From a virus (taxonomy: Duplodnaviria; Heunggongvirae; Uroviricota; Caudoviricetes): a stretch of 21,065 bases of DNA. The notes under the pieces are model-generated. The model searched no databases and was not told the DNA's origin. It worked only from the letters and a program-made list of their open reading frames with translations. How positions within the stretch are numbered: position 1 is the stretch's first letter; the number at the start of each line of letters is the position of its first letter. The stretch lies in IMG/VR virus record IMGVR_UViG_2718218228_000013; one strand, written 5' to 3'. Position numbers and translations under genes: made by a program. This document shows, in pieces, positions 1 through 19,628 of the stretch.

Positions 1-125
1 ATGTCTGCACCTGCATTGCCTGATGTCAGAACAGTATTTTGATTAATTGCCAGGGTTACAATGGCACAAATGCGGCACAGGAGGAAACGTGGTGTATTTA
101 AATATGGGGTAACTACTTGATTTAA

Positions 126-142
126 ATGGTGCGATAATAGGA
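126..142. repeat. Left att-type direct repeat of the P4-like element (ATGGTGCGATAATAGGA)
   Basis: 17/18 identity (one 1-nt gap) with 13012-13029, which is the 3' end of the tRNA-Thr fragment next to int; same orientation. Confidence 0.55.
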
Positions 143-675
143 ACCAATAATCGCCACCAACACAATGATTTTAATACATAAATTAAAATAGAAGATTTAA
201 ACTACACACACCCCTATACACATTGGTGAAGGCGTTCGCTTTCCGCGCATTCTCAAGGCAGAAAAAACTTTTTTTGGGGGAAAACTGTTCATACTACTCA
301 TTGTGTTTTTTTTCATTAATATTCAAAAAGATATGAAATTAACGATTGATAAGAAGTGAACACTTTACTGTTCACCTTGACTGATTAATAAGTGCATAAA
401 AACCTAATTTTTGAGCACGGAAGGTATTTGTTCCTTACCCCATTTTTTCTCTTTAGTCCAGTACAACAAAAAATGCGCCCAACAGAAAACTGTTTTGAAT
501 TTAAATGCAATCGCTTTGTAGTGATTGTAACGTAAGTTGATTTGATGGGTGCGATTTTGTTTAGCGATAATGGTATGTTGTAAAAATCATTTCGTTGCAA
601 TAAAATTGCATCGCTACATTTTATAGACAATATCAATTAAATTTTAATACTCATTATTAATTTTGAGGCTAACAA

Positions 676-1632
676 GTGACTAGTTATTCAAACTTTTCCA
701 ATCAAATAAAAGAAACCATCAATAATAAATTCGATCATGAAATTCATGATTGGGACATTATAAAAAACTCAATCACAACTTTAATAAATAAAAATATCCA
801 TGGTGCAGGTAGAAATATCGTTGATTTTATAGATTTAGGTAACTGGGATTTTATTTCAAACTTTTCCTTTGATGACTCTACAAGAAGACTTGAATTAGAG
901 TGGCACCCCAATGATAAATTCCATATATATATTGAGTCCGTTGTGTTTGTCGAGTTTAATGACACTATATATGCTTTCTTAAAGGGATACTATCACAATC
1001 AGTTATCTCTAAATAGAATATATAATACAAAATGCTCTTCATGTTCATTTGAAAACTCAGGTTCTTATATGGTAGACGTTTATAGAACGGTTAAAAGAGT
1101 AAATGAGACAATCCAGACCCCAAATATAAATTGCTATACTACATGTATTTTAACAAGGCCCGCAAATGGTCATGTTACATCTACAGGCTTCTCACGAAAC
1201 CTCATGGATGCGATAAATATTTCATTAGCAGAGCACAAAATAGCCTCTTTACATAATGAAGTCATGAGTATTGAGGAATATGATCGTGATTCTTTACAAG
1301 AGAAAGGAAATACTGCCAGGAGATATTTAGAATATATTCTCATGCTTGTTAATATTCGTATAATGCATTTAAACAACGTTCAATACCAAGAGCAAATGCT
1401 AGGTAGTTTAGTTTCTGTTATTGAGGCTCTGGACTATGAACCATTAATGAAAAATGATGTTGAAATTACAAAGGACATCCTTAATGCTTGCAGCCACCAC
1501 GGGGGGGTTAGAATTGAAAAGAAAGATGTAATTTTTTCTTTGGAAGTTATTGAAAACTTAATTAAAGCCATAAAGAAAACCGACATAAATAAATTACAAC
1601 TCGATGGGATGTTTAAATCAATTCAAAAATAA
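676..1632 (+). CDS. Hypothetical protein (318 aa), AT-rich cargo gene between left att repeat and primase
   Basis: Long ORF with GTG start; GAGG 7 nt upstream; much more AT-rich than the adjacent primase gene. No motif recognised. Confidence 0.6.
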   Translation: MTSYSNFSNQIKETINNKFDHEIHDWDIIKNSITTLINKNIHGAGRNIVDFIDLGNWDFISNFSFDDSTRRLELEWHPNDKFHIYIESVVFVEFNDTIYAFLKGYYHNQLSLNRIYNTKCSSCSFENSGSYMVDVYRTVKRVNETIQTPNINCYTTCILTRPANGHVTSTGFSRNLMDAINISLAEHKIASLHNEVMSIEEYDRDSLQEKGNTARRYLEYILMLVNIRIMHLNNVQYQEQMLGSLVSVIEALDYEPLMKNDVEITKDILNACSHHGGVRIEKKDVIFSLEVIENLIKAIKKTDINKLQLDGMFKSIQK

Positions 1633-1764: not shown

Positions 1765-4098
1765 TTATTTCGCTGCAAACTCATCGCATTTTGGCAACCA
1801 GTCAGCATTGCTTTCCTCTCTTAGGGCCAGATTAGTCTGCATTCCTTGATTGGTCCGTCGTTTCTCATACTGCAGCCCATATTCCTTGAGCATTAACGGT
1901 AGCCCCTTGCCAAACATGGTCAGACTGAGCGTATTTTTATAGCCGTTAGCCTCCATGTAGACCAGATAGGCATGGTAGAGGTAAGTTCGAGGCTGACGTG
2001 GAACAATATTAGCGTTCCCCATAAACATGCCCGTGGTGTCAGGTAGGACCTCAAGGTAGCCGCAAAAATCAAAAGCTGAATCAGCATCACGTTTGATGGT
2101 GAGCGCTTCATCGGAGTTCTGCTGTGACTGAAGCAATGTCCTGGCACTCATTGGGTCGCTGAAACGCTGCATAAGCTGGCGAACAATCACCGCTAGCTCA
2201 CTGGCAATTTTCTCTTTGAGCTGGGTATCGCGTTCCTCCGGGGCTATCTGGTCGGGGAAATGCAGGATCACCCTTCGGCGTGAAACTCCACCACTACGAT
2301 CAGTGAAGCGCATCGGATTATTGTTCACAGCCAGGATGACCGCCGGGATGTGGGTTGAATAGGCGTTCTGATATTTGGGATCAACGGATACCGCATCGCC
2401 GCCAGTGATGGCTTTTAGTCCGGCCCCGTCACCGCTCCACTTTTCCTGGTCGGGAAGTCGAATCAGTGAAAAACCTATTAACGCAGCTCGTTCTCTTGGC
2501 GACTCAAGCATTTCAATGGTTGCCGAGGTCGCGTTATCTTCACCCGCCAGCATGGTTGCTATTTCAGCAAGAATACTCTTTCCACTTCCGCCAGGGCCAG
2601 TGACCTCCAGAAACAGCTGCCAGTCATAACGGTTAGCCAGCACCATAAACAATGCAGCCAGAATAATGTCCCGTTTTTCAGGATTAAAACCTGCGGCACG
2701 ATCCAGCCAGCGCCAGAATGCCGGGGCATGGGTTTCCAGTGACTCACCGTCAACGGGCTGCGTGTAATCCACCTCGCACAGCGTACGTAACCAGTGCTTC
2801 TTATCGTGCGGGCTGAACAATCCTGTCCGGGTATCGAGCACACCGTTGCGAAATCCGATAAGTTGCCGCGCCGGATTCTGCTGTTGCGGAACGATCAGTT
2901 TGAGGGTTTCCACGAGAGACGCAATTTTCGCGGATGAAAAAGGTGCGTCGAGGCGCTGAAACAGCGCAGCGACATCACGGGCAAAATCGGCGTAATAGAT
3001 AACTTTCCAGGCCCCCGCCTCATAGCGTGAAAGGAGCTGCCCGTTCGGGTCTACTGCCAGTGAATTTTTATAGTGATCCACTACCCTCTGCGCTTTTTCG
3101 CTGACGCTCAGCGCGGTAAATTCAGCTTCGCTCATTGTGTCGAAGGGGCTGGCAACAGCTGGTTTTATTACTTCATGAATTGCATGCCGGGTGGCTTCTT
3201 CGCCGTTTTGCGTGAATGCATCGTTCCAGTCACCAAACACAGGCGGGAGCGCCATTGTGCAATTGCAGGCCCCGGTAACAGCTGCGCCCCTTGTTTGCCC
3301 CGCACCGTTGAGATCGCGGTCAGCAGCAATAATTATCTGGTGCGTTGGGTACTCACTGCAGGCAATGCTCGCCAGGGAAAGGAAATTGACGGACGAAAAG
3401 GCCACCATGACAGCATCGCCAGTCAGATAGTTGATAGTAAGTGCGGTGGCATATCCTTCCGCTATCCAGAGCCGTTTGGCTGCTTTGGCAGTACCTTCAA
3501 CCAGGTAAAAGGCATTCTTAACCTGACCGCCTTTAAGGAAGCATTTGCCCCCATTAGCGTTGATTAACTGCAGATTTACCAGCTCTCCATCTGCATACAA
3601 TGGAACGACAAGATCTCCCGCGCGAAATGCCACACCACCGACTTTATGCATAGCGGTTAATTCCCGGCAAGGCAGTGCAGGAAACCCTTTACTCGTCAGA
3701 TAGGCATTGCCAGTGGTCTGGCGGGACTTATCAAACAAACGGGCAGCCAGCACTGCTGCAGCTTTTCTCCCGTCCTCTTTTTCAGGAGAACCAGATTCAA
3801 GCATTCCCTGAGATACTGGCAGCAGGTTTCCGATAATGCCGTTTATTCTGTCTGCCGCTTCACTAATGCCTACATCCAGTACTTTACTTACAAGCGCCAG
3901 GCCATCACCTGCCCCGCACTGGTTACAGAACCACGTTCCCCGCCCTTCCTGGTCATCAAATCGAAAGCGGTCTTTCCCGGCACAGACCGGGCAGGGCTGG
4001 TGCCGATTTTTCAGTACATTTACGCCCAGCGCAGGTAAAATTCTTGACCAGTGACCCCGAGCTGCTTTCTCAGCCTGGCTAACTTTCATTCCTGACAT
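1765..4098 (-). CDS. P4 alpha-type DNA primase-helicase (777 aa)
   Basis: ORF 1765..4155; start placed at the internal ATG (4098) preceded by AAGGAGGG. N-terminal Cys-rich zinc-binding primase region (CPVCAGKDRFRFDD...WFCNQCG); Walker A-like GPGGSGKS. Length equals P4 alpha (777 aa). Confidence 0.92.
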   Translation of the reverse strand: MSGMKVSQAEKAARGHWSRILPALGVNVLKNRHQPCPVCAGKDRFRFDDQEGRGTWFCNQCGAGDGLALVSKVLDVGISEAADRINGIIGNLLPVSQGMLESGSPEKEDGRKAAAVLAARLFDKSRQTTGNAYLTSKGFPALPCRELTAMHKVGGVAFRAGDLVVPLYADGELVNLQLINANGGKCFLKGGQVKNAFYLVEGTAKAAKRLWIAEGYATALTINYLTGDAVMVAFSSVNFLSLASIACSEYPTHQIIIAADRDLNGAGQTRGAAVTGACNCTMALPPVFGDWNDAFTQNGEEATRHAIHEVIKPAVASPFDTMSEAEFTALSVSEKAQRVVDHYKNSLAVDPNGQLLSRYEAGAWKVIYYADFARDVAALFQRLDAPFSSAKIASLVETLKLIVPQQQNPARQLIGFRNGVLDTRTGLFSPHDKKHWLRTLCEVDYTQPVDGESLETHAPAFWRWLDRAAGFNPEKRDIILAALFMVLANRYDWQLFLEVTGPGGSGKSILAEIATMLAGEDNATSATIEMLESPRERAALIGFSLIRLPDQEKWSGDGAGLKAITGGDAVSVDPKYQNAYSTHIPAVILAVNNNPMRFTDRSGGVSRRRVILHFPDQIAPEERDTQLKEKIASELAVIVRQLMQRFSDPMSARTLLQSQQNSDEALTIKRDADSAFDFCGYLEVLPDTTGMFMGNANIVPRQPRTYLYHAYLVYMEANGYKNTLSLTMFGKGLPLMLKEYGLQYEKRRTNQGMQTNLALREESNADWLPKCDEFAAK

Positions 4099-4111
4099 TG
4101 TGCGGCCCTCC

Positions 4112-4435
4112 TTAGTGCAGCGCTGGTTTGTTGAGGTGACGGGAACAAAGTTCATCCATGACCGTCATTCCGAGCAGTGAGAGAACCGGACAGGCTTTAA
4201 GCGGCCCCGACTCCATCAGATCCGAAAGCAACGCGCAGGCAATTTCCAGCCCTCTTTGCTGCCCATGCTGGCGCAGATAGAACCCTTCCAGCTCGCGGGC
4301 TATGGCATCTTCAAGTTCAGCGAGCGTCAGGCCGGAATAACGTTCCTGATGATTGCTTAGAGCCAGCCAGGCACAGGCAACGGCACGGCGATACAGAGCG
4401 GCACGAAGTGCCAGAAGAGATTCACAGCATATCAT
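4112..4435 (-). CDS. Hypothetical protein (107 aa) upstream of primase
   Basis: ORF whose start overlaps the upstream gene stop (TGATG-type) and ends 13 nt before the primase start. No motif recognised. Confidence 0.5.
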
Positions 4436-4656
4436 CAGGCCACCTCCGCATTCATCAGGTCGTCATGGCAGCGTTGCACCACTCCATCCAGTTGCTCTGT
4501 CATCAGATAAATGAGGGAAACCAGTTGTTCGCATTGGGCACCTGCTGGCTTTTCATAACAGTCCTGCAGGGCTGCCATGCCAGTTACATACTCACCCACA
4601 TTGCGTAAATGTTTCAGCCTTACAACATCGTCGTAGGAAATCTCAAACTGGTTCAT
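4435..4656 (-). CDS. Hypothetical small protein (73 aa)
   Basis: ATG start with GGAGG 9 nt upstream; ATGA overlap with the upstream small gene. Confidence 0.5.
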
Positions 4657-4847
4657 AGCGTCACCTCCCCGGCAGGCAGCCGTGCAGAAAGGGAGAGTAC
4701 ATAATCTCGGACTAGCAAACGGCGCGCGGAACGCTCATCGCAGGAGACAGTGCGAAGCATACAGATGCGGGGGTGAGTGTCAGCACGGCGGATTGCGGCA
4801 AACACAAAGACATATTGCGGGTGTGACGGGGTGAGGATTGTAGCCAT
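4653..4847 (-). CDS. Small protein (64 aa), possible Icd/Kil-like host-interference protein
   Basis: Internal ATG of the 185-aa ORF, preceded by GGAGG with 8-nt spacer; sits where P4/P1 immunity regions carry kil/icd. Identity is a guess. Confidence 0.35.
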
Positions 4848-4879
4848 GATGGCAGCCTCCAATAAGTAGCGGTTATTGC

Positions 4880-4980
4880 TACCACCGGAAACGCCAATTT
4901 CACTGGTGGCAGCCCGAACGGGGTTGGCGTAACCGGCCTTATTGGAAACCGGCCAGCCCGAAGGCTGCCCCGCCCGGACT
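4880..4980 (-). ncRNA. Candidate c4/cI-type antisense immunity RNA region
   Basis: Hairpins (CAGCC-CGAA-GGCTG at 4954-4967) and three GGCAGCC/GGCTGCC motif copies in mutually complementary orientations, one overlapping the RBS of the downstream small gene (4851-4860). Boundaries approximate. Confidence 0.3.
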
Positions 4981-5206
4981 ACCATTATCTCGATAGAACC
5001 ATGGTGTAAGCATAAACACCACAGCCCTGAAAATGGTTGTGCCTGAGCTACGACGTAAAAAAAGACGCAAGGGGCGTCAATTGTCGCCAATAAGTTATAC
5101 GGAACGCCAATTCCGGCTGCCGATTTTGCGACAGCGGAAAAACTATACCTGGAAATGACGACAGTAAGCAAGCCAGAATAAAGGTATTTAATGTATGCAG
5201 GTATCA

Positions 5207-5467
5207 TCATGCATCACATCCCCGCCCACGGGCGCTGATGCGGTCCGCCATCCATGCGCTGACCTCAGACTGTGCCCAGGCGACATTTTTACCGCCAAGC
5301 GGGATCTGCTTCGGAAACGCATCGCGGCTGATCAGGTCGTAAACGGTCGAACGGGACAACCCGCATAAGTGCATCACCTCAGGCAGGCGTAAAAATCGCT
5401 CATGATGGTTCGATACAGGAAATAATGGCGCAGCAGGAGCTGGCGCAGACACAGAAATATTACGCAT
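5207..5467 (-). CDS. alpA: AlpA/Vis-family phage transcriptional regulator (excisionase-like HTH)
   Basis: [23 protein letters not shown]...[12 protein letters not shown] matches the AlpA family pattern; AGAGGG RBS upstream. Confidence 0.8.
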
Positions 5468-6019
5468 TTATCTACCCTCTTTAATTTCCACAACAGTCCG
5501 GATGAATTTATCCGGGTTCAGGTAGTTCCTTATTATGTGTATATAAACCACCTGCGCACGCATTTTTTATTTAGCGTCACATATTGATTTTATGGAATTT
5601 AAAGCCCGATTAAACCATATAAAATGACATAATAAATACCATGCCTGCGGACTATAAATACAGGAGCATTAATAGGAACTACCATTCACCCAGGGTTTAC
5701 TATCCTATGGGTCATTGCACCTGATAGTGCTAACCCCACCGCCAATACAGCAAGGCAGTACAACTTCTACACGAGGCCTTGCATTGCAGGCCCCAATTTC
5801 CGGGCATATTTTTGAATCGCATCCAACTTATAAACATTGGGCCTGCATAAAAACCTTGATATTAAATAACATCACCTTAAATCGTAAAATATATCCGAAT
5901 GAATCCATAAAGAACCGGACAGATCTAGTTTTATAAAAATCAGTATGAAATGCAACACCATGGCCAGAGGCGAAAATGTTATTCCCCGGCAAAAACATGC
6001 AGTCTATTTATGTGCCTGT

Positions 6020-6234
6020 TGAATACTCCTGAATAAGGGTGAATAGTGGTGAGGAGCAAAAAACAAATAGCTACGAGGAATAAAAAAACCACCCATTATG
6101 AAAAAATACCATAAATAATTTTATTCCCATGTGAACAGTTATGAACAGTCGATGAATACTGCCATGCCAACCCTTCACCTTATAACCTTCTGTATTACCT
6201 ATTTTTTTTACCTAAGTGAATAGTAGTGAATAGT
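6020..6234. repeat. Cluster of at least 7 direct 8-9 bp iterons TGAA(T/C)A(G/C)T, candidate alpha-binding crr/ori-type site
   Basis: Copies at 6020, 6040, 6132, 6142, 6153, 6217, 6227, mostly 10 bp apart; reverse complement contains TGTTCAC, the P4 type I iteron core. Similar motifs at 286-295, 356-364 and 369-376. Confidence 0.5.
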
Positions 6235-6312
6235 TAAGGTAAGTCTGAAACAGCCTTAGTTAAACGAGGCCTTTTCTGGCTAGCCAAAAGAGGTCCGGGG
6301 CGGTTCAGTCTT

Positions 6313-6330
6313 TGTCTTGTCGCTCGCACA
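6313..6330 (+). promoter_or_regulatory. Candidate Ogr/Delta-dependent late promoter element (TGT-N12-ACA dyad) upstream of sid-like gene
   Basis: TGTCTTGTCGCTCGCACA fits the P2/P4 late-promoter activator dyad, about 70-90 bp upstream of the ATG at 6401. Confidence 0.4.
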
Positions 6331-6400
6331 ATGGCGTTCAATGGCAGCTTTGTATGCATCACAGCACAATTGACACCACGACAAACCACTAGGTGCTGAC

Positions 6401-7153
6401 ATGACAATCCCAGAACAGAACAATAACCCGATCGTTGAAATTTCTATCCCTGTTTCGACGCAACAGGCGCTTGAGAAAGTGAATGCCACCAAATCTGCAT
6501 GGCTTGAAGCACGTCGTCAGCAAAAAGCGGCAGCGGATAATATTGCGACAATCCGCCAGCGCCGCGCTGAAATGGAAGCCACGACGAACGCCCTGAATGA
6601 GGAGTGGCGCACGCTATTTCGTGAAAGTCAGGGCGTAGTCTCAAAGGAAATGAAAAAACTGCGCACGGAAATTGCGCTGGGACGAGAAACGCTTGAGGAT
6701 TTTGATGAGCTGCTGGCGGCTCAGGAAAGCGAAAATGCACTTTTGCCGCAGGAGGCTGCGGAATTAGCCGGAAAGTATATCCACGCGCACGACACCCTTG
6801 TGGGTATTCGCGCAAAACAAATCTGGGAAGATTTTATGCAGTCGCATGGAAAAGCACTAATCCAGACACTAAGCCTGCTCAAATCAACAATGGGCAGGGA
6901 AGCCAGCGCAGTTGTCGGTGTGGTGCATTCAGTTAATGACCCGGACACACTGCTGAAAGATTTTATTCATAAACATATCACCAGACCGGCTCTGACTAAC
7001 GATGCGATGCCCGAACAGGACCCCGTGTTTAAACTGGCGGGAGTTGCCCCGGATTATGCGGCCCGTCTGGATTTCAGTAATAAACTCTCTCCAGCAGCTA
7101 TGCATAAAATGAAGGTTCGTCAGGAACGTGCTGAGAAGGAGAAAGCAGTATGA
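6401..7153 (+). CDS. sid: Sid-like capsid size determination (external scaffold) protein
   Basis: 250 aa (P4 Sid 244 aa); first gene of the late operon; internal similarity to the downstream Psu-like protein; stop overlaps the next start. Confidence 0.6.
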   Translation: MTIPEQNNNPIVEISIPVSTQQALEKVNATKSAWLEARRQQKAAADNIATIRQRRAEMEATTNALNEEWRTLFRESQGVVSKEMKKLRTEIALGRETLEDFDELLAAQESENALLPQEAAELAGKYIHAHDTLVGIRAKQIWEDFMQSHGKALIQTLSLLKSTMGREASAVVGVVHSVNDPDTLLKDFIHKHITRPALTNDAMPEQDPVFKLAGVAPDYAARLDFSNKLSPAAMHKMKVRQERAEKEKAV

Positions 7154-7701
7154 TGGCCCGAGTCACTCCAGACCAAGCGCTTATCAGTTTTAGAAATGCC
7201 CGTATTCTGTGGGCTGGACATAGTGAGAGCCGAAAAGCCGTTGAACAACAGATAGAATCACTCCTCACTGCCATGGAAAAACCAGCAGATTATGCTCGAC
7301 AGCTCGAATTACAGCGGGAACATCTGGATGTGCTGAAATGGCAAATTAACTGTGCTGCGCGCGAATGCATTTACTCGCAGCATCAACTGATGGAGGCCTG
7401 CACAGAAGACGCTCTCAGCAATTTTATGCAGGCGAATGGAGCAGCCCTGACATCTGCACTGGCTCCGTTCCTGAAGGGGCGCGGAGGGGTTGACGTTGCG
7501 TCCCGTATATTACGCAATGCTCTGGTTCGCCAGCTGGCAATAACACCGCCTGAAATTGCCGGGGATTATCGTATGATTCTGGATGAATCCGGTGTGATGC
7601 CTGACCCCATGATGGTTCGTGATTGCCAGAGCTCTTACACCCCTGCACAACAACTGCGCTTTCAGCAACGTCTGGATTACATTAACGGCATGCAGGAGTA
7701 A
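7150..7701 (+). CDS. psu: Psu-like polarity suppression / capsid decoration protein
   Basis: 183 aa; LKWQINCAARECIYS, FMQANGAALTSALAP and YTPAQQLRF resemble P4 Psu as I recall it. Confidence 0.7.
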   Translation: MMARVTPDQALISFRNARILWAGHSESRKAVEQQIESLLTAMEKPADYARQLELQREHLDVLKWQINCAARECIYSQHQLMEACTEDALSNFMQANGAALTSALAPFLKGRGGVDVASRILRNALVRQLAITPPEIAGDYRMILDESGVMPDPMMVRDCQSSYTPAQQLRFQQRLDYINGMQE

Positions 7702-7706
7702 TATTA

Positions 7707-7979
7707 ATGGCACTTAAATGTCCCGAATGCGGTACGACGGCACACGCCAGAACCTCCGCCTATGAAGCACCATCGGTTAAACGCTCATGGTATCAGTGCC
7801 AGAATCTTGAATGTTCCTACACATTTACCGCACTGGAAAGTGTGGATACGATAATCATGAAGCCCCGGCGCAATGAACAGGAATCAGAGAAAGCACAAAT
7901 GCCGGAAAAACAACAGCAAACTCTCAATCGCTATGGCTCCGCGTCAAAGCTGTCAAGCCGTCAGCAAATTCCTGTCTGA
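7707..7979 (+). CDS. Ogr/Delta-family zinc-finger late transcriptional activator
   Basis: CPECGTTAHARTS...YQCQNLECSYTF, the classic Ogr/Delta Cys4 motif; 90 aa. Confidence 0.9.
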   Translation: MALKCPECGTTAHARTSAYEAPSVKRSWYQCQNLECSYTFTALESVDTIIMKPRRNEQESEKAQMPEKQQQTLNRYGSASKLSSRQQIPV

Positions 7980-8388: not shown

Positions 8389-8955
8389 TTAAACAGGATA
8401 AAAACCAGAGCTTCCATTCTTATTTAAGTTATGGATTTTATTTGCATCATTAATTTTTATTTGGAACGTCGGACCTTTATTCTCAAGAATTACAATCTGG
8501 AAATTATAGTCCCTTTTGATTAATGCGTGATAAAATGAATCACTGAGACTGACGCTATTAACATCCGATAGAGAACCCCCTCTATCTTTATCAAAGTGCG
8601 TCACTAATGGACTATCAAGCACAACAAATCCAATGAATGGATTCCCTTTTCTTGATAAAAATTCCGCAAAGCAAATGGTAAATATAGCATGCATTACTGC
8701 ACGGGTACCTTTACCAAACATTCCTCGGCGTTTCCCATTGATATTAAAGTCATATGTATCTTCGTCAAATCGCACTTTGTTATCTTTAGAATTTTCAAAA
8801 TTTATATCATTCAAAAAGTCTTGCATCGCTATTTCTATATCATACAAATCAGCTACTGTTAAGGAGTCAAAGTCCTCGGCGGAGTATTTAAGTTCGTCAA
8901 CATCATCTTCTTTATCTTGTAATGAAGATAGAATGCTATGTTTTGTGTGATCCAT
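8389..8955 (-). CDS. ABC/SMC-like ATPase C-terminal lobe (Walker B-like FVVLDSP), hotspot cassette gene 6
   Basis: 188-aa ORF; hydrophobic strand + D (PFIGFVVLDSP); ATG overlaps upstream stop as TAATG; could be a frameshifted continuation of the upstream ORFs. Confidence 0.55.
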   Translation of the reverse strand: MDHTKHSILSSLQDKEDDVDELKYSAEDFDSLTVADLYDIEIAMQDFLNDINFENSKDNKVRFDEDTYDFNINGKRRGMFGKGTRAVMHAIFTICFAEFLSRKGNPFIGFVVLDSPLVTHFDKDRGGSLSDVNSVSLSDSFYHALIKRDYNFQIVILENKGPTFQIKINDANKIHNLNKNGSSGFYPV

Positions 8956-9545
8956 TAAAAGATTGTCTTTATATTCATAAAGTGATTCAAGAGATGAATG
9001 TATTGTTTTATATTTTTATCTTCTAACGTCTTAAAATCACTTTTTTCTGATTGATAAATTTCATTAACATCATTTTTTCTTAACATAATTAATTCATGTT
9101 CGCGAACATTAGATCCGATTGATTCAATTAATCCTTTCAGCTGGCTTTTGATTTTCAATTTTTCTGCATTACACGACAAAAAACAATCATCATATGATAT
9201 TTCATTTTCTTTTTTTTGCGGTGTATTACAGAACTCACAATAAATATCTGCAAAATTATTTAAATAGAAATTCGCCTGTGATACAACATCTATTCTTTGT
9301 AGATCTATAAAGTATTGGTCTTTAAGAAGACTAAATCTTTCAATGAGTAATGATAAGTATTTTTCCCTGTCACTGATTGAATATAATTCATCACTTAACT
9401 CTTTTAATAATTGCTTCTTATCATCAAGTGCATCAACAATACCTTTCAATATATCTTTCGATGATTCAATATCTTGCTCTACTTTCTCAAGTTCTCTTGA
9501 AACAATGACTTGATCATATTCAGGATAAATTAATTGCGCTTTCAA
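8955..9545 (-). CDS. Coiled-coil segment with central CxxC (CEFC), hotspot cassette gene 5
   Basis: 196-aa K/E/L-rich heptad-like sequence; same frame as the upstream Walker A ORF, separated only by one TAA (9576-9578). Confidence 0.5.
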   Translation of the reverse strand: MKAQLIYPEYDQVIVSRELEKVEQDIESSKDILKGIVDALDDKKQLLKELSDELYSISDREKYLSLLIERFSLLKDQYFIDLQRIDVVSQANFYLNNFADIYCEFCNTPQKKENEISYDDCFLSCNAEKLKIKSQLKGLIESIGSNVREHELIMLRKNDVNEIYQSEKSDFKTLEDKNIKQYIHLLNHFMNIKTIF

Positions 9546-9575
9546 TTCCTCATAAATATTTGCAATTTGATTTTT

Positions 9576-10226
9576 TTAAAAATATCTTGCTTTTTTATTT
9601 GGTTTTTCTGCTAAGGAGTTAGTATCATCTCTCTGAGTTAAAAGGAATTTAAATTCAGACTTTCTTTTTGTCTCCTCGCTAGGAATATCAGAAAGAATTA
9701 ACGACTTCTCAGTTAACACTCTTAATTCATCAATACAAAAAAATTCAAAAACATTATTAAGATTAAATTTATGAAGAGTATTACTTAAGTTTGTTCTTAC
9801 TTTAGCCTCTTTGAAATTCAACCTACCATAAAAGTATGATGAAAAACTCTTTTTAGACGAAGCACTTTTGGAAAAAACCATCAACAGATTAGCTTCACTA
9901 ACATTTTCAATGCTCGAATCATATAATCTGTAATGGGCGCTATCCTGAAGAGACCTCTCAATTGTCATTACCCTACCTTGAAAATTAAATTCCAGATAGG
10001 CTAAATCATAACCTTGAGCATGATCGATATCTTTATTTTTTAGTTTTTCACTCCCTAATAAATATCGAATCAAATAATATATGTATGTTTTTCCAGAGTC
10101 AGAACCACCATATAAAATAGTCAATTTAGAACCAAATTCAATTATAGCATCTAATTTATTGAATCCGGTTACCTTTATTTTTCTGAACGTAAAAAAATTG
10201 TCATTCATAATTAAATTCCATATCAT
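9576..10226 (-). CDS. ABC/SMC-like ATPase N-terminal lobe (Walker A GGSDSGKT), hotspot cassette gene 4
   Basis: LTILYGGSDSGKTYI P-loop in a RecF/SMC-like N-terminal context; ORF opens at TTG 10235, ATG starts at 10226 or 10208; ends at in-frame TAA. Confidence 0.6.
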   Translation of the reverse strand: MIWNLIMNDNFFTFRKIKVTGFNKLDAIIEFGSKLTILYGGSDSGKTYIYYLIRYLLGSEKLKNKDIDHAQGYDLAYLEFNFQGRVMTIERSLQDSAHYRLYDSSIENVSEANLLMVFSKSASSKKSFSSYFYGRLNFKEAKVRTNLSNTLHKFNLNNVFEFFCIDELRVLTEKSLILSDIPSEETKRKSEFKFLLTQRDDTNSLAEKPNKKARYF

Positions 10227-10659
10227 ATTTGCCAATTTTATTTTTTATAATTGATTGCAACTGCTCATCAGGAATATCACTATATAACTTAACCACCAAA
10301 TTTATATTATGCTCCATCTGCGCAACATATTCATTATGTAGAGAATTTGTAAATGCATATGTTTTTTCAGAAGCTTTATATACAAAACCACGATGTGTAT
10401 AAATTTTTGAGGCTAGTTCATAGCCTTGCAACAAAGCCAATGATTCTAAAACAATCTCTCGTTTTAGGGCTAACTGAGCATCTCTACGGGGTATTGGAGG
10501 ATGAAGACTAATCTCTTCAGGTAAAAAATCCTTAAGATTTACTAAAATAAAATCAAAACAAATAAGCCGTTCAAGGCTTAATGAAGAAGGATAAATAGCG
10601 ACGAGCACTTTCGCCATTCGACATGCCACTTCTAAACTTGAATTATAAATTCTAACCAT
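10201..10659 (-). CDS. Hypothetical small protein (about 152 aa), hotspot cassette gene 3
   Basis: ATG at 10659 overlaps upstream stop as TAATG; GGTGA 4 nt upstream; stop overlaps start region of gene 4. No motif recognised. Confidence 0.5.
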   Translation of the reverse strand: MVRIYNSSLEVACRMAKVLVAIYPSSLSLERLICFDFILVNLKDFLPEEISLHPPIPRRDAQLALKREIVLESLALLQGYELASKIYTHRGFVYKASEKTYAFTNSLHNEYVAQMEHNINLVVKLYSDIPDEQLQSIIKNKIGKYDMEFNYE

Positions 10660-11276
10660 TATCTCACCGTCCAAATTACTTCACCATCATTAACCAAATG
10701 ATGGCATATTCCTTTTTTATCATTTGCTTCACATATTTTTGATAGTACTGAATGTGCAATTGGTGTCAGAACAGCCTGCTTCAAGACTGCATTACACCTA
10801 ATAAATGCATAATTATGGTCTTCATAAAAGACGGGTTCAATTGAAGATGAAATGTAACATTTCAATGCTTTGAATACATCATCTTTAAATACTTCGCGGA
10901 CAAAAACCTCAAGCGAAGATGCAAAATAAAAATCATTTCTACTATTATTAAAGTGTCGTCTGTATGGATCATCAAGCTCTAAGAAAGAACTATAAGTTTT
11001 ATTTCCATGCTCTGAATAGGCTTGAAGCAGTGCATTAACATATACAGACTCTTTTTTTGAATTGTATGTTGGAATTTCATTTGGAGGGATTCTCACGACA
11101 TACAGCTCGTTAAAGTACTTAAAATAAAGGTGTGTATTTGCAATATCATTTAAAATCAATGATAAGGGTAGAGAGTAAAAAATACTAAAATCAAAATCCT
11201 CAATATATTTTTTTATTTCATCATCTAATGGAATATCAATCTTTTTAGTTATTTTTTTGAAATTGCTGAATCCCAT
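10659..11276 (-). CDS. Hypothetical protein (205 aa), hotspot cassette gene 2; possibly C-terminal part of a frameshifted gene 1-2 fusion
   Basis: AT-rich ORF with one candidate start; overlaps gene 1 by 28 nt across an A7 tract where a 1-nt indel would fuse the frames. Confidence 0.5.
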   Translation of the reverse strand: MGFSNFKKITKKIDIPLDDEIKKYIEDFDFSIFYSLPLSLILNDIANTHLYFKYFNELYVVRIPPNEIPTYNSKKESVYVNALLQAYSEHGNKTYSSFLELDDPYRRHFNNSRNDFYFASSLEVFVREVFKDDVFKALKCYISSSIEPVFYEDHNYAFIRCNAVLKQAVLTPIAHSVLSKICEANDKKGICHHLVNDGEVIWTVR

Positions 11277-11665
11277 GAATCAAGGACTGCTTTTTTAAGC
11301 TCGTTTTTATTTTTCAATAAATTAGAAAATGTAGTAGATAAATCATAGGGTGCCACAAAAAAGTACTTCTGAGGGATGGGATAATCACCATTCAGAGTAA
11401 AATAGATAAGTTTTCCAAACTCAACTACAACATCAGAGAACCCTAAACTTTTTTTGTACAGTTTGCATTGATAATTATCCCAAGAATAACCTTCTACGTT
11501 AGGATCCGATTTATATCCAACAACGTCTCTACCTTTATCTCCAGCTCCTCCCAAACGTTCGCTCCACGGGTAATCATCTGATTTACAGACAATAAGCCAA
11601 TCATGGACAAATACCCCCCATTGTTCATCATCCCATGTCAATATTTCCGAAAGTGGTTGAGACAC
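11249..11665 (-). CDS. Mrr-type PD-(D/E)xK restriction-endonuclease-like domain protein (138 aa), hotspot cassette gene 1
   Basis: GGAGDKGRDVVGY ... YQCKLYKK matches the Mrr catalytic pattern; GTG start with AAGGAG 7 nt upstream, 3 nt after the int stop. Confidence 0.55.
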   Translation of the reverse strand: MSQPLSEILTWDDEQWGVFVHDWLIVCKSDDYPWSERLGGAGDKGRDVVGYKSDPNVEGYSWDNYQCKLYKKSLGFSDVVVEFGKLIYFTLNGDYPIPQKYFFVAPYDLSTTFSNLLKNKNELKKAVLDSWDSAISKK

Positions 11666-11668
11666 AAA

Positions 11669-12850
11669 TTAACTCCTTTTTAGTCTTTCAAATATCAAAT
11701 TACTGTACCAGTCCATCATAGACTTCCTTCCACTAAAATATTGAGCATGGTTATAAGTCCCCCTAATAGAATTTTTATCTACATGAGCCAACTGGATTTC
11801 AATCCAAGCACTCTCAAAACCTTGCTCATGCAGGATTGTAGAAAGGGTATGACGAAAACCATGTCCAGTGACTTTTCCTCCATACCCAATACGCTTAATG
11901 GCTTGATTTATACTCGCTTCGCTCATTGGCCTATTCGGATCGTTCCGCCCTGGAAAAACATAACGATAGTTCCCTGTCATGATCTTGAGTTCATTGAGTA
12001 AATCTACCGCTTGAGATGATAAGGGCACAAGATGTGGCCTACGCATTTTCATCCTTTCAGCAGGAATTTCCCAAATAGCGTTATCCAGATCAAATTCTTG
12101 CCATAATGCCGCGCGTAATTCGATGGTTCTCACACCCGTAATCATCAGTAATTTCGTGGCTATCTGGACAAGCTTACTCCCGGAGTAACCCTCTAAGGCA
12201 CGTAGAAAATCAGGTATCTCATCAGCTTTTAGGAATGGGAAATGATTGGATTGGTGTACTTCGAGAGCGCTGGAGAGATCAGCCGCAGGATTGTACTCCG
12301 CCCTACCCGTTGCAATTGCGTAGCGAAACACTTCGGAGCAACGCTGCCGCACTTTGCGCATTTTCTCCAACGCACCACGTTTCTCAATTTTACGCAGAAC
12401 GTTCAGCAGCTCTAGCGGTTTAATCTCTCCCACAGGCCTTGTTCCGACATAAGGAAAAATGTCGTTCTTAAACGCTTCCATGATGTCTGATGCATATCCC
12501 GCCGACCATTTAGCAGATTTAAGTTGATGCCACTCTCTGGCTATCTTTTCGAAGGCGTTCTCTGACTCTGTTTGCATAGCTAGCTTTTGCTCTTTTCGAA
12601 CCTCACTAGGGTTCTTTCCTTCTGCCACAAGTTTTCGAGCTTCATCACGACGGGAACGAGCATCGGCAAGGGTGATCGTTGGGTAAACACCAAGCGAGAT
12701 CATTTTGGGTTTGCCGGCATAGCGATAGCGGAACCGCCAACTCTTGCTTCCATTAGGTTCTATAAGTAATGACAACCCTAGCCCATCTCCAAATGTATAG
12801 GCTTTAGCTTCAGGCTTAGCGCGGCGAATCTGCATATCGTTTAAAGGCAT
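11669..12850 (-). CDS. int: P4-type tyrosine integrase
   Basis: MPLNDMQIRRAKPEAKAYTFGDGLGL N-terminus and C-terminal HGFRHT...Y catalytic region; start placed at ATG 12850 (ORF opens at 12901). Confidence 0.92.
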   Translation of the reverse strand: MPLNDMQIRRAKPEAKAYTFGDGLGLSLLIEPNGSKSWRFRYRYAGKPKMISLGVYPTITLADARSRRDEARKLVAEGKNPSEVRKEQKLAMQTESENAFEKIAREWHQLKSAKWSAGYASDIMEAFKNDIFPYVGTRPVGEIKPLELLNVLRKIEKRGALEKMRKVRQRCSEVFRYAIATGRAEYNPAADLSSALEVHQSNHFPFLKADEIPDFLRALEGYSGSKLVQIATKLLMITGVRTIELRAALWQEFDLDNAIWEIPAERMKMRRPHLVPLSSQAVDLLNELKIMTGNYRYVFPGRNDPNRPMSEASINQAIKRIGYGGKVTGHGFRHTLSTILHEQGFESAWIEIQLAHVDKNSIRGTYNHAQYFSGRKSMMDWYSNLIFERLKRS

Positions 12851-12900
12851 GTGTATAGGAATCCAGACCGAACAGGAACATATACACAATCCTATACACA
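12850..12900. promoter_or_regulatory. Perfect 11-bp inverted repeat (TGTGTATAGGA / TCCTATACACA) bracketing the int translation start region
   Basis: Arms at 12850-12860 and 12890-12900 separated by 29 bp, immediately upstream of and overlapping the int ATG. Confidence 0.4.
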
Positions 12901-13012
12901 TTCAGTACCGGATTCTACTGGATGGTTACGGACTACTATGGACTTAAAAGAATAAAAAATGTTATAAATCAGAGATTTTATGGACTAATACGGACGTTTG
13001 AGGAAGTTGAGA

Positions 13013-13058
13013 TGGTGCCGATAATAGGAGTCGAACCTACGACCTTCGCATTACGAAT
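13013..13058 (-). other. 46-nt 3' fragment of a tRNA-Thr(CGU) gene (anticodon loop to CCA), right att copy of the P4-like element
   Basis: Reverse complement ATTCGTAATGCGAAGGTCGTAGGTTCGACTCCTATTATCGGCACCA matches the 3' part of enterobacterial tRNA-Thr(CGU) as recalled; no complementary 5' acceptor strand, so not an intact tRNA. Confidence 0.75.
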
Positions 13059-18414: not shown

Positions 18415-18741
18415 ATGACTAAAAATACTCGTTTTTCCCCCGAAGTCCGTCAGCGGGCGATTCGTATGGTTCTGGAAAGTCAGGATGAATATGACTCACA
18501 GTGGGCGGCAATTTGTTCCATTGCCCCAAAGATTGGCTGTACGCCGGAGACTCTGCGTGTCTGGGTTCGCCAGCATGAGCGGGATACCGGGGGCGGTGAT
18601 GGTGGGCTCACCAGCGCTGAACGTCAGCGTCTGAAAGAGCTGGAACGTGAAAATCGTGAACTGCGCCGCAGTAACGATATCCTTCGCCAGGCTTCCGCTT
18701 ATTTTGCGAAGGCGGAGTTCGACCGCCTCTGGAAAAAATGA
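18415..18741 (+). CDS. IS3-family transposase OrfA (HTH)
   Basis: [22 protein letters not shown]...[31 protein letters not shown] is the OrfA type of IS629/IS3-group elements. Confidence 0.9.
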
Positions 18742-19628
18742 TGCCACTGCTGGATAAGCTGCGTGAGCAGTACGGGGTCGGACCGGTATGCAGCGAACTG
18801 CATATTGCCCCGTCAACGTATTACCATTGTCAGCAACAGCGACATCATCCGGATAAACGCAGTGCCCGTGCGCAGCACGACGACTGGCTGAAGAGAGAGA
18901 TACAGCGCGTATACGATGAAAATCATCAGGTGTACGGTGTGCGTAAAGTCTGGCGTCAGTTGTTACGGGAAGGAATCAGGGTGGCCAGATGTACAGTGGC
19001 ACGTCTCATGGCGGTTATGGGACTTGCCGGTGTTCTCCGGGGTAAAAAGGTCCGTACGACCATCAGCCGGAAAGCCGTTGCCGCAGGCGACCGCGTAAAC
19101 CGTCAGTTCGTGGCAGAACGACCTGACCAGCTGTGGGTGGCTGATTTTACTTACGTCAGCACATGGCAGGGCTTCGTCTATGTGGCGTTTATCATTGATG
19201 TGTTTGCCGGATACATCGTGGGGTGGCGGGTCTCATCGTCTATGGAAACGACATTCGTGCTGGATGCGCTGGAGCAGGCGTTGTGGGCCCGTCGTCCGTC
19301 TGGCACCATCCATCACAGCGATAAAGGCTCTCAGTATGTGTCACTGGCCTATACGGAGCGACTAAAAGAAGCCGGATTACTGGCATCAACAGGGAGTACA
19401 GGCGACTCGTATGACAACGCGATGGCTGAGAGCATCAATGGTCTTTACAAAGCGGAGGTAATACACCGTAAGAGCTGGAAAAACCGTGCAGAAGTGGAAC
19501 TGGCCACACTAACGTGGGTGGACTGGTATAACAATCGACGATTGCTGGGAAGGCTGGGCCATACTCCTCCGGCAGAAGCAGAAAAAGCTTATTATGCTTC
19601 CATCGGAAACGATGATCTGGCAGCCTGA
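18738..19628 (+). CDS. IS3-family transposase OrfB (DDE integrase core), expressed as OrfAB by -1 frameshift
   Basis: DDE region (WVADFTYV...HSDKGSQY...[11 protein letters not shown]); overlaps OrfA at the A6 run 18733-18738. Confidence 0.9.

What the first reader, a model, noticed from the sequence alone, without database searches (positions are those of the whole stretch)
5990..6250. Phased iteron cluster between the divergent alpA and sid operons (candidate crr/ori)
At least seven direct copies of TGAA(T/C)A(G/C)T occur at helical spacing. Their reverse complement contains TGTTCAC, the core of the P4 type I iteron bound by the alpha C-terminal domain. A second small group, including an inverted pair GTGAACA-N6-TGTTCAC, lies at 286-376 near the other end of the element.
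Basis: partly seen in the sequence, partly recalled or inferred. Interest (0 to 1): 0.45.

Follow-up and report, generated by a model that had tools for sequence, protein, structure and literature searches.

The report
P4-type satellite replication origin (ori)
The repeat cluster is the replication origin of a P4-like satellite prophage of E. coli O157:H7, a close structural copy of the origin already mapped in phage P4, so it is real but ordinary.

Summary
Seven exact TGAAYAST copies, all on the + strand, lie at 6020-6234 in three groups spaced 10-11 bp. Simulated sequence never gave more than 2 in 260 bp.

The window is a P4-like satellite prophage, 100% identical in about 295 E. coli O157:H7-type genomes. 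Its alpha primase-helicase is 73% identical to P4 alpha.

In P4's GenBank record the origin lies between the vis/alpA-type gene and sid. It has type 1 repeats arranged as 3 direct (spacing 10, 11), 1 inverted and 2 direct (spacing 10). The window's 6130-6234 aligns to that layout slot for slot.

The same core was found upstream of alpA in all 64 alpha-relative loci that retained enough sequence there. The GTGAA columns are the most conserved. In the closest relatives the iteron cores carry 1/96 substitutions against 93/573 elsewhere.

So the finding is the ori homologue, not crr.

One point stays open. The left triple (6020-6049) sits where P4 has its type 2 repeats, which match the P2 Cox-box consensus. 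Other satellites carry variable 10-bp arrays there. In the window only one of these three units is a strong type 1 iteron.

Verdict: a new member of a known kind, of low interest.

The parts
6018..6057 (+). Left array of four 10-bp units: GTTGAATACT, CCTGAATAAG, GGTGAATAGT, GGTGAGGAGC. Unit 3 (6038-6047) is a strong type 1 iteron. Units 1 and 4 are weak and unit 2 is not iteron-like. The array sits where P4 has its 'type 2' repeats (cox boxes).
   Evidence: Searches give the positions. One search gives family-PWM ranks of 22, 1336, 2 and 35 out of 42112 window positions. Searches show positional equivalence to P4 9176-9205. One search shows weak constraint (3/45 substitutions, p=0.13).
6058..6129 (.). 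AT-rich spacer (20-30% G+C) between the left array and the core iterons. It is the candidate DNA unwinding region.
   Evidence: 40-bp G+C values. One search shows it aligned to the A-rich stretch of P4 at about 9260-9305.
6130..6160 (+). Core triple of type 1 iterons: TGTGAACAGT, TATGAACAGT, GATGAATACT, with start spacing 10 and 11. On the - strand these read as the P4-style TGTTCAC(A/C) family.
   Evidence: Searches align them to P4 type 1 repeats at 9310/9320/9331, which have the same 10/11 spacing. One search shows the GTGAAC columns are the most conserved. One search gives ranks 6, 17 and 16.
6170..6179 (-). Inverted type 1 iteron: GGTGAAGGGT on the - strand, ACCCTTCACC on the + strand.
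   Evidence: Searches align it to the P4 inverted repeat TGTTCACC at 9353-9360. ranks it 7 of 42112. One search shows TTCACC is conserved.
6181..6214 (.). Conserved AT-rich block (TATAACCTTCTGTATTACCTATTTTTTTTACCTA) between the inverted iteron and the right pair.
   Evidence: ACTGTATTAC plus a T-run is conserved across 64 satellites. One search gives 25% G+C.
6215..6234 (+). Right pair of type 1 iterons, AGTGAATAGT twice, with spacing 10.
   Evidence: Searches align them to P4 repeats at 9396/9406. ranks both joint 3rd. One search shows one unit is precisely deleted in E. coli strain 472.
6264..6288 (.). Conserved block GAGGCCTTTTCTGGCTAGCC between the origin and the sid promoter. Its role is unknown.
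   Evidence: high-information columns CCTTT.TCTGGC.AGCC across the family..
6313..6330 (+). TGT-N12-ACA dyad. It is the position equivalent of the Ogr/Delta-type activator site of the P4 sid promoter.
   Evidence: One search aligns it to P4 TGTGTCAGGGCTGGCACA. The activator role rests on established P2/P4 knowledge, not on a test here.
263..379 (+). Single crr unit, homologous to P4's 120-bp crr repeat. Retained iterons are TGTTCATA (286-293), AGTGAACACT (355-364) and, on the - strand, GGTGAACAGT (367-376).
   Evidence: alignment to both P4 crr repeats. (nhmmer E 3.6e-25, the only hit in the window). (ranks 1 and 5).
1765..4155 (-). Alpha primase-helicase, the presumed initiator. The origin-binding winged-helix domain is encoded at about 1789-2088.
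   Evidence: Zn-ribbon primase, Toprim, D5_N, DUF5906 and Pox_D5 domains. (73% identity to P4 alpha). (PDB 1KA8, E 1.2e-47).
4112..4435 (-). DUF5375 protein, homologue of P4 ORF106 (Cnr, the copy-number regulator that acts on alpha).
   Evidence: DUF5375, E 1.7e-49. (71% identity to P4 ORF106). The Cnr role is from established knowledge.
5207..5467 (-). alpA/vis-type gene. It marks the left border of the intergenic region.
   Evidence: Phage_AlpA. (63% identity to P4 ORF88/Vis).
6401..7153 (+). sid homologue, first gene of the sid-psu-delta operon. It marks the right border.
   Evidence: Psu/Sid-type families. (RefSeq annotation).

Best explanation
Region 6018-6234 is the replication origin (the P4 'ori' or ori1 equivalent) of a roughly 12.9-kb P4-like satellite prophage.

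By homology with P4, the satellite's alpha protein binds the GTGAAYA/TRTTCAC iterons through its C-terminal winged-helix domain. The helical spacing puts the sites on one face of the DNA. The adjacent AT-rich stretches are the likely place where DNA opens. Alpha's own helicase and primase activities then start theta replication.

A second iteron site in cis is also expected to be needed, as in P4. Here that is the single crr unit at 263-379, downstream of alpha. The DUF5375/Cnr homologue probably modulates alpha binding.

What is shown: the repeats, their layout, their homology to the annotated P4 origin, their conservation and selective constraint, and the presence of alpha, crr and cnr.

What is inferred: alpha binding, DNA opening, the crr requirement, and whether this copy still fires.
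For: 1. P4's record annotates its origin at 9086-9809, between ORF88 (vis) and sid. It has type 1 repeats at 9310, 9320, 9331 (one orientation), 9353 (inverted), 9396 and 9406. The window has 6132, 6142, 6153, an inverted copy at 6170-6179, then 6217 and 6227. The spacings are the same, 10/11 and 10, and the offset is 85 against 86 bp.
2. Homology extends beyond the repeats, for example CTGTATTAC plus a T-run.
3. An nhmmer profile of the core finds it upstream of alpA in all 64 alpha-relative loci with enough sequence, at E 1e-74 to 4e-11. The window scores 1.8e-50. The GTGAA(C) columns carry the most information.
4. A PWM was built from 62 other satellites, leaving this lineage out. Its seven best scores among 42112 window positions all fall in this region or in crr.
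5. In three diverged relatives (81-89% identical, or from another genus), the iteron core positions have 1/96 substitutions against 93/573 for the rest of 6013-6250. Fisher p = 4e-6.
6. Alpha is intact and 73% identical to P4 alpha, and it carries the 1KA8 origin-binding domain. A crr unit and a cnr homologue are present.
Against: - No direct evidence of binding or replication exists.
- None of the slots carries the perfect P4 octamer GGTGAACA. Slots 6140 and 6151 have A where the family almost always has G.
- crr is a single unit with about 3 of 5 iteron slots intact, and it lies 1389 bp from alpha instead of about 55 bp.
- The element may be a cryptic prophage whose origin no longer fires.
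- The three relatives used for the constraint test are not independent lineages.
- The left array may not be part of the alpha-binding set (see rival 1).
Confidence: 0.85

Rival explanations
1. The left array (6018-6057) is not alpha's. It would be a landing pad for a helper-phage recombination directionality factor of the Cox/Apl type. Such a factor would bind three or more direct repeats one helical turn apart and switch on the leftward alpA/late-left promoter, as P2 Cox does on P4.
For: - The array occupies the position of P4's 'ori type 2 repeats'.
- Those P4 repeats read TTAAAGTCA, TTAAAGCCA and TTAAAGCAA at 10-bp spacing. That matches the cox-box consensus TTAAA(G/C)NC(A/C). Cox is reported to bind upstream of P4 PLL with boxes 10-11 bp apart (PMC3936717).
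- Most related satellites have a 3-4 unit, 10-bp-period array at -110 to -180 from the iterons, and its sequence differs between satellites.
- One such array type, TGGCAAWC, also occurs in non-satellite viral contigs. In one such contig checked in detail it lies between a repressor gene and a Cox-like excisionase gene; in others it lies next to a tRNA 3' end.
- Apl-type proteins need at least three adjacent direct repeats at 10-11 bp (PMC7498355).
- The left array is less constrained than the core (3/45 substitutions).
Against: - Unit 3 (GGTGAATAGT) is the second-best type 1 iteron in the whole window. In E. coli MIN14 it is the perfect GGTGAACAGT.
- No helper switch region examined (P2, Wphi, SEN5, P88_4B11, fiAA91-ss) has TGAATA-type boxes.
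- About 440 bp of lineage-specific DNA separates the array from alpA.
Confidence: 0.3
2. The region is a decayed relic. It is homologous to a P4 origin but no longer functional in this cryptic O157:H7 prophage.
For: - The iterons are degenerate: no perfect octamer, and two slots have A in place of a near-invariant G.
- crr is a single, partly eroded unit displaced by an inserted ORF.
- One iteron is deleted in strain 472.
- No TGT-N12-ACA activator site was found for a leftward late promoter.
Against: - Iteron cores are strongly constrained within the lineage, including a copy in another genus (1/96 against 93/573).
- Alpha, cnr, alpA, sid, psu, delta and int are all intact ORFs.
- The variant GGTGAATA is itself annotated as a type 1 repeat in P4 crr.
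Confidence: 0.2
3. The repeats are operators for a transcription regulator of the divergent promoters (AlpA/Vis or Delta), not an origin.
For: The region lies between divergent operons. RDF-type regulators use direct repeats at helical spacing (PMC7498355).
Against: - The core is homologous to repeats annotated as origin repeats in P4.
- The same motif recurs in crr, far from any promoter of these operons.
- AlpA proteins with identical helix-turn-helix regions sit next to different upstream arrays, while the core iterons stay constant.
- The Delta-type site is a separate TGT-N12-ACA dyad at 6313-6330.
Confidence: 0.04
4. The cluster is the crr (cis replication region) rather than ori.
Against: - A crr profile hits only 263-379 in the window (E 3.6e-25) and nothing in 5990-6250.
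- In P4 and in most relatives crr lies downstream of alpha.
- The 3+1+2 layout and its flanks match P4 ori.
Confidence: 0.02

Closest known systems
Origin of replication (ori / ori1) of satellite phage P4 (NC_001609, rep_origin 9086-9809)
   Same: - Same position between the vis/alpA-type gene and sid.
- Same arrangement of type 1 iterons: 3 direct at 10/11 bp, 1 inverted, an AT-rich block, then 2 direct at 10 bp, with an 85-86 bp offset.
- Homologous flanks and a homologous initiator, with alpha 73% identical.
   Different: - The iteron sequences are degenerate: GTGAATA, ATGAACA and ATGAATA instead of GGTGAACA.
- P4's cox-box-type 'type 2' repeats are replaced by a TGAATA-type array containing one strong type 1 iteron.
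- About 440 bp of extra DNA lies between alpA and the origin.
- A 15-bp insertion lies before the sid promoter dyad.
P4 crr (cis replication region, two 120-bp repeats, NC_001609 4291-4590)
   Same: It uses the same type 1 iterons. The window has a homologous unit at 263-379.
   Different: It is not the finding region. The window has one unit rather than two, about 3 of 5 slots are intact, and it lies 1389 bp from alpha with an ORF in between.
P2 Cox boxes and phage 186 Apl operators (RDF arrays)
   Same: Three or more direct repeats about one helical turn apart. In P4 the boxes lie immediately left of the origin iterons, as the window's left array does.
   Different: The window's units do not match TTAAAGNCA or any box set seen in the helper switch regions examined. 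One unit is a type 1 iteron.
Iteron origins of Gram-negative PICIs (e.g. EcCICFT073) and of iteron plasmids
   Same: Two sets of direct repeats flank an AT-rich region and are bound by an element-encoded initiator (PMC6092414).
   Different: The initiator family is unrelated (a Pri-Rep type there, P4 alpha here) and so is the iteron sequence. The P4 type also needs a second distant site, crr. This is a functional analogy only.

Membership tests
P4-type origin (ori1) | Lies between the vis/alpA-type gene and sid, upstream of the sid promoter | tested here: met
   alpA at 5207-5467(-) and sid at 6401(+). The P4 origin is annotated between ORF88 and sid. The TGT-N12-ACA dyad is aligned.
P4-type origin (ori1) | Type 1 iterons (TGTTCACC / GGTGAACA family) arranged as 3 direct, 1 inverted and 2 direct at helical spacing | tested here: met
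   Positions and spacing match P4 slot for slot. The family PWM ranks them at the top of the window. The sequences are degenerate variants.
P4-type origin (ori1) | Sequence homology of the non-repeat parts of the origin | tested here: met
   nhmmer E 1.8e-50 for the window against a profile of the family core. The ACTGTATTAC/T-run block is conserved.
P4-type origin (ori1) | Cognate alpha initiator with primase, SF3 helicase and a C-terminal origin-binding winged helix | tested here: met
   Pfam domains. 73% identity to P4 alpha. PDB 1KA8 match at E 1.2e-47.
P4-type origin (ori1) | Partner crr site with type 1 iterons in cis | tested here: met
   One unit at 263-379. It is reduced compared with P4's two units.
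P4-type origin (ori1) | Type 2 repeats (CCACTTAAAG three times; cox-box type) left of the iterons | tested here: not met
   A 10-bp array is present at the equivalent place but has a different sequence. This feature varies across the family, so it does not define the origin.
P4-type origin (ori1) | Alpha binds the iterons, and the fragment supports alpha-dependent replication | not testable with these tools
   Needs EMSA or footprinting and replicon assays.
P4 crr | Homology to the 120-bp crr repeat, located downstream of alpha | tested here: not met
   The crr profile hits 263-379 only and nothing in 5990-6250.
Cox/Apl-type RDF operator array (left array only) | Three or more adjacent direct repeats at 10-11 bp | tested here: met
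   6018/6028/6038/6048. The criterion is from PMC7498355.
Cox/Apl-type RDF operator array (left array only) | The repeat sequence matches the operator set of a known helper RDF | tested here: inconclusive
   No TGAATA-type boxes in the P2, Wphi, SEN5, P88_4B11 or fiAA91-ss switch regions. The collection scan was too unspecific. Few helpers were sampled.

The most novel reading that the evidence does not exclude
The 10-bp-period arrays just left of P4-family origins may be interchangeable helper-sensing modules. Each would be a set of Cox/Apl-type boxes matched to the RDF of the satellite's helper phage. In the O157:H7 lineage this module would have been replaced by, or converted into, alpha-type iterons. 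Control of the leftward late promoter and origin would then be rewired to the satellite's own initiator or to an unidentified helper factor.
Probability: 0.2. Interest if true: 0.5.

Novelty: new member of a known kind. Interest (0 to 1): 0.2.

Why it matters
It gives a functional label to an unannotated 930-bp gap in a prophage carried by hundreds of sequenced O157:H7 genomes. It also shows that the P4 origin architecture is conserved across Enterobacterales satellites whose alpha proteins are only 56-94% identical. That helps satellite annotation and the design of P4-based vectors, but it does not change what is known about how P4 replicates.

The side observation is the part that could lead to new biology. 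The array next to the origin varies between satellites, and in two cases (P4 and the TGGCAAWC type) it matches Cox/Apl-type sites of helper phages.

Tried and rejected
- blastn ('distant') of 5400-6500 against the phage collection found nothing. The similarity to P4 is patchy and only appeared on direct alignment.
- Reading the variable upstream arrays as AlpA/Vis sites was rejected. Loci with identical AlpA helix-turn-helix regions carry different arrays.
- The switch regions of P2, Wphi, SEN5, P88_4B11 and fiAA91-ss show no TGAATA-type boxes.
- A Cox/Apl alignment was too divergent for the search for related loci.
- The TGT-N12-ACA match at 6130-6147 is formed by two adjacent iterons. I read it as coincidence, because P4 has GGT there.
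- Rfam at a permissive threshold finds nothing in 5400-6450.
- The small ORFs 5828-5998(-) and 5715-5936(+) have no Pfam or PHROG family.
- The original P4 replication papers (Ziegelin 1993; Tocchetti 1999), Christie and Dokland 2012 and Saha 1989 are not held. Statements on alpha binding, the crr requirement and Cnr therefore rest on established knowledge plus the GenBank annotation.

Full report
**What the window is**

The window carries a P4-like satellite prophage.
- Pfam finds a primase-helicase at 1765-4155(-) with Zn-ribbon, Toprim, D5_N, DUF5906 and Pox_D5 domains.
- It also finds a DUF5375 protein (4112-4435), an AlpA-family regulator (5207-5467, -), two Psu/Sid-family proteins (6401-7153 and 7150-7701) and an Ogr/Delta zinc finger (7707-7979).
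- Rfam finds the C4/CI-type antisense RNA and isrK at 4902-5135(-).
- The 5468-6400 interval is 100% identical in about 295 complete E. coli genomes, almost all O157:H7, with nothing annotated under it.
- In strain TR01 the element runs from a hypothetical gene next to alpha to a tyrosine integrase, which is window 11669-12901.

**The observation**

TGAAYAST occurs exactly seven times on the + strand between 6020 and 6234. The starts are 6020, 6040, 6132, 6142, 6153, 6217 and 6227. Near copies lie at 6030 and 6050.

The whole window has 11 matches against 2.97 expected, and no shuffle reached 11. Seven same-strand copies in 260 bp compares with a maximum of 2 in 300 simulated windows. None of 5000 simulations of the intergenic region reached 4.

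Spacing inside the groups is 10-11 bp. Only one copy contains the exact GTGAACA, and three contain GTGAATA. The second group at 284-376, including GTGAACA-N6-TGTTCAC, is confirmed.

**Comparison with P4**

The P4 record (NC_001609) annotates the origin at 9086-9809, between ORF88 (excisionase/regulator, i.e. vis) and sid. It lists:
- 'ori type 1 repeats' at 9310, 9320 and 9331 (one strand), 9353 (the other strand), and 9396 and 9406;
- three 10-bp 'ori type 2 repeats' at 9176-9205;
- crr downstream of alpha, as two 120-bp repeats each with five type 1 repeats.

Pairwise and multiple alignments place the window's 6130-6160 triple, the ACCCTTCACC at 6170-6179 and the 6215-6234 pair on the P4 type 1 repeats. 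The spacings are the same, 10/11 and 10. The triple-to-pair offset is 85 bp against 86 bp. The block CTGTATTAC plus a T-run between them is shared. The TGT-N12-ACA dyad at 6313-6330 aligns with the dyad before P4 sid.

Window 263-379 aligns to both P4 crr repeats. It is the only crr-profile hit in the window, at E 3.6e-25.

The alpha protein is 73% identical to P4 alpha over 771 residues. Its last ~100 residues match PDB 1KA8 at E 1.2e-47. 1KA8 is the solved P4 alpha winged-helix DNA-binding domain, as described in PMC2777425.

**Conservation**

Eighty loci encoding alpha relatives (56-94% identical) were fetched from species-representative genomes of Enterobacterales and some MAGs. Most of those with sequence upstream of alpA show the same positional pattern of TGAAYA hits.

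An nhmmer profile of the core found it in all 64 loci with enough sequence, at E 1e-74 to 4e-11. In the resulting alignment the GTGAAC, AG and TTCACC columns and the ACTGTATTAC block carry the highest information.

A position weight matrix was built from the five direct slots of 62 other satellites, leaving the window's own lineage out. It was scored over all 42112 positions of the window. The seven best scores are:
- 367(-) GGTGAACAGT
- 6038 GGTGAATAGT
- 6215 and 6225 AGTGAATAGT
- 355 AGTGAACACT
- 6130 TGTGAACAGT
- 6170(-) GGTGAAGGGT

All seven lie in the origin or in crr.

Within the window's own lineage I compared E. coli 64EVA (89% identical), E. coli MIN14 (81%) and Scandinavium lactucae. 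The fixed iteron positions have 1 substitution in 96 cells, against 93 in 573 for the rest of 6013-6250 (p = 4e-6). The caveat is that the three sequences are related to each other. The C/T position inside the iteron flips freely between relatives.

**Mechanism (inferred)**

From established work on P4 (Ziegelin et al. 1993, 1995; Flensburg and Calendar 1987; Tocchetti et al. 1999; recalled, not read here):
- alpha binds type 1 iterons in ori and crr through its C-terminal domain;
- it provides helicase and primase activity;
- it needs both sites in cis;
- Cnr modulates its binding.

The window has every component, so the same mechanism is the most likely one. The AT-rich stretches at 6058-6129 and 6181-6214 (20-30% G+C) are the candidate opening sites.

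**The left array**

The three leftmost copies sit where P4 has its type 2 repeats. Those P4 repeats read TTAAAGTCA, TTAAAGCCA and TTAAAGCAA at 10-bp spacing. This is the cox-box consensus. P2 Cox is reported to bind upstream of P4 PLL with boxes 10-11 bp apart (PMC3936717).

Most related satellites have a 3-4 unit, 10-bp array at -110 to -180 from the iterons. Its sequence differs between satellites: TGGCAAWC, TATTGGCC, AATATAGG, TGCCTACA and others. AlpA does not covary with these arrays.

A scan for the TGGCAAWC array gave 32 hits. Sixteen were satellites and 16 were other viral contigs. In one group of the non-satellite contigs the array lies just upstream of a conserved ORF start. In the contig examined, L215, that ORF is a Cox-like excisionase gene, and the order is int, repressor, array, cox-like gene, cII-like gene, as in phage 186. 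In a second group the array lies next to a tRNA 3' end.

These arrays therefore look like helper RDF operators. That fits the rule that Apl-type proteins need at least three direct repeats at 10-11 bp (PMC7498355).

For the window the question stays open:
- The array is in that position and is weakly constrained (3/45 substitutions).
- Its third unit is the second-best type 1 iteron in the window, and in MIN14 it is the perfect GGTGAACAGT.
- No helper switch region examined has TGAATA-type boxes.

**Verdict**

It is a new member of a well-characterised kind. Function is inferred by strong homology, and activity in this cryptic prophage is untested. Interest is low. The variable array next to the origin is the only part that might repay further work.

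Noticed in passing
L001 9176-9205; loci L003-L081, about 110-180 bp left of the origin iterons; L213-L244: P4-like satellites carry a second array of 3-4 units at 10-bp period next to the origin, and its sequence differs between satellites. P4's version equals the P2 cox-box consensus. The TGGCAAWC version also occurs in non-satellite viral contigs: in the one contig checked in detail it lies between a repressor gene and a Cox-like gene, and in others it lies beside a tRNA 3' end, a likely att site.
   Followed up: partly
L208 (E. coli strain 472), equivalent to window 6215-6234: Exactly one 10-bp iteron of the right pair is deleted. This is copy-number variation of an origin iteron within otherwise identical DNA.
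   Followed up: no
window 6293-6307: The O157:H7 copies with the window's sequence (the window and strain 472) have a 15-bp insertion (about TCCGGGGCGGTTCAG) just before the sid-promoter dyad. It is absent from O157:H7 strain LSU61, O55:H7, 64EVA, MIN14 and Scandinavium.
   Followed up: no
window about 5550-5990: About 440 bp of lineage-specific DNA lies between the alpA leader and the origin. It is shared with Scandinavium L038. It has no RNA family, and its small ORFs have no protein family. Klebsiella L030 has a different insertion at the same place, flanked by a duplicated alpA-leader segment.
   Followed up: partly
window 676-1632 (+) and loci L003-L067: A 318-aa ORF with no Pfam or PHROG match sits between alpha and crr. 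Across satellites, crr units are often displaced 0.7-2.3 kb from alpha or split apart. This suggests an insertion hotspot at crr.
   Followed up: partly
window 125-146 and 13011-13033; 205-224 and 12882-12902: Likely att core repeat ATGGTGC(C)GATAATAGGA. The right copy lies in a truncated tRNA-like 3' end that ARAGORN does not call. A shared CCTATACACATT repeat, possibly an integrase arm site, occurs near both ends. Together these imply an element of about 12.9 kb.
   Followed up: partly
window 4902-4989 (-) and 5058-5135 (-): A C4/CI-type antisense RNA and isrK lie inside the ORF annotated as an Icd/Ash-like protein (4653-5210). This is the P4-type RNA immunity region.
   Followed up: no
window 8389-11665 (-): The hotspot between delta and int holds an AAA ATPase and 'ABC-three component system' genes according to RefSeq, so it is probably an anti-phage cargo. 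Gene content in this stretch differs slightly between the window and strain TR01.
   Followed up: no
window 18415-19628, 18696-18812: An IS3-family element with an ALIL frameshift pseudoknot lies outside the satellite. Remnants of a lambdoid prophage follow.
   Followed up: no
window 2320-2329 (-) and 5681-5690 (-): Two isolated sites score fairly well against the type 1 iteron matrix: TGTGAACAAT inside alpha and GGTGAATGGT in the lineage-specific segment. From memory, P4 is reported to have a second origin inside alpha. This was not examined.
   Followed up: no
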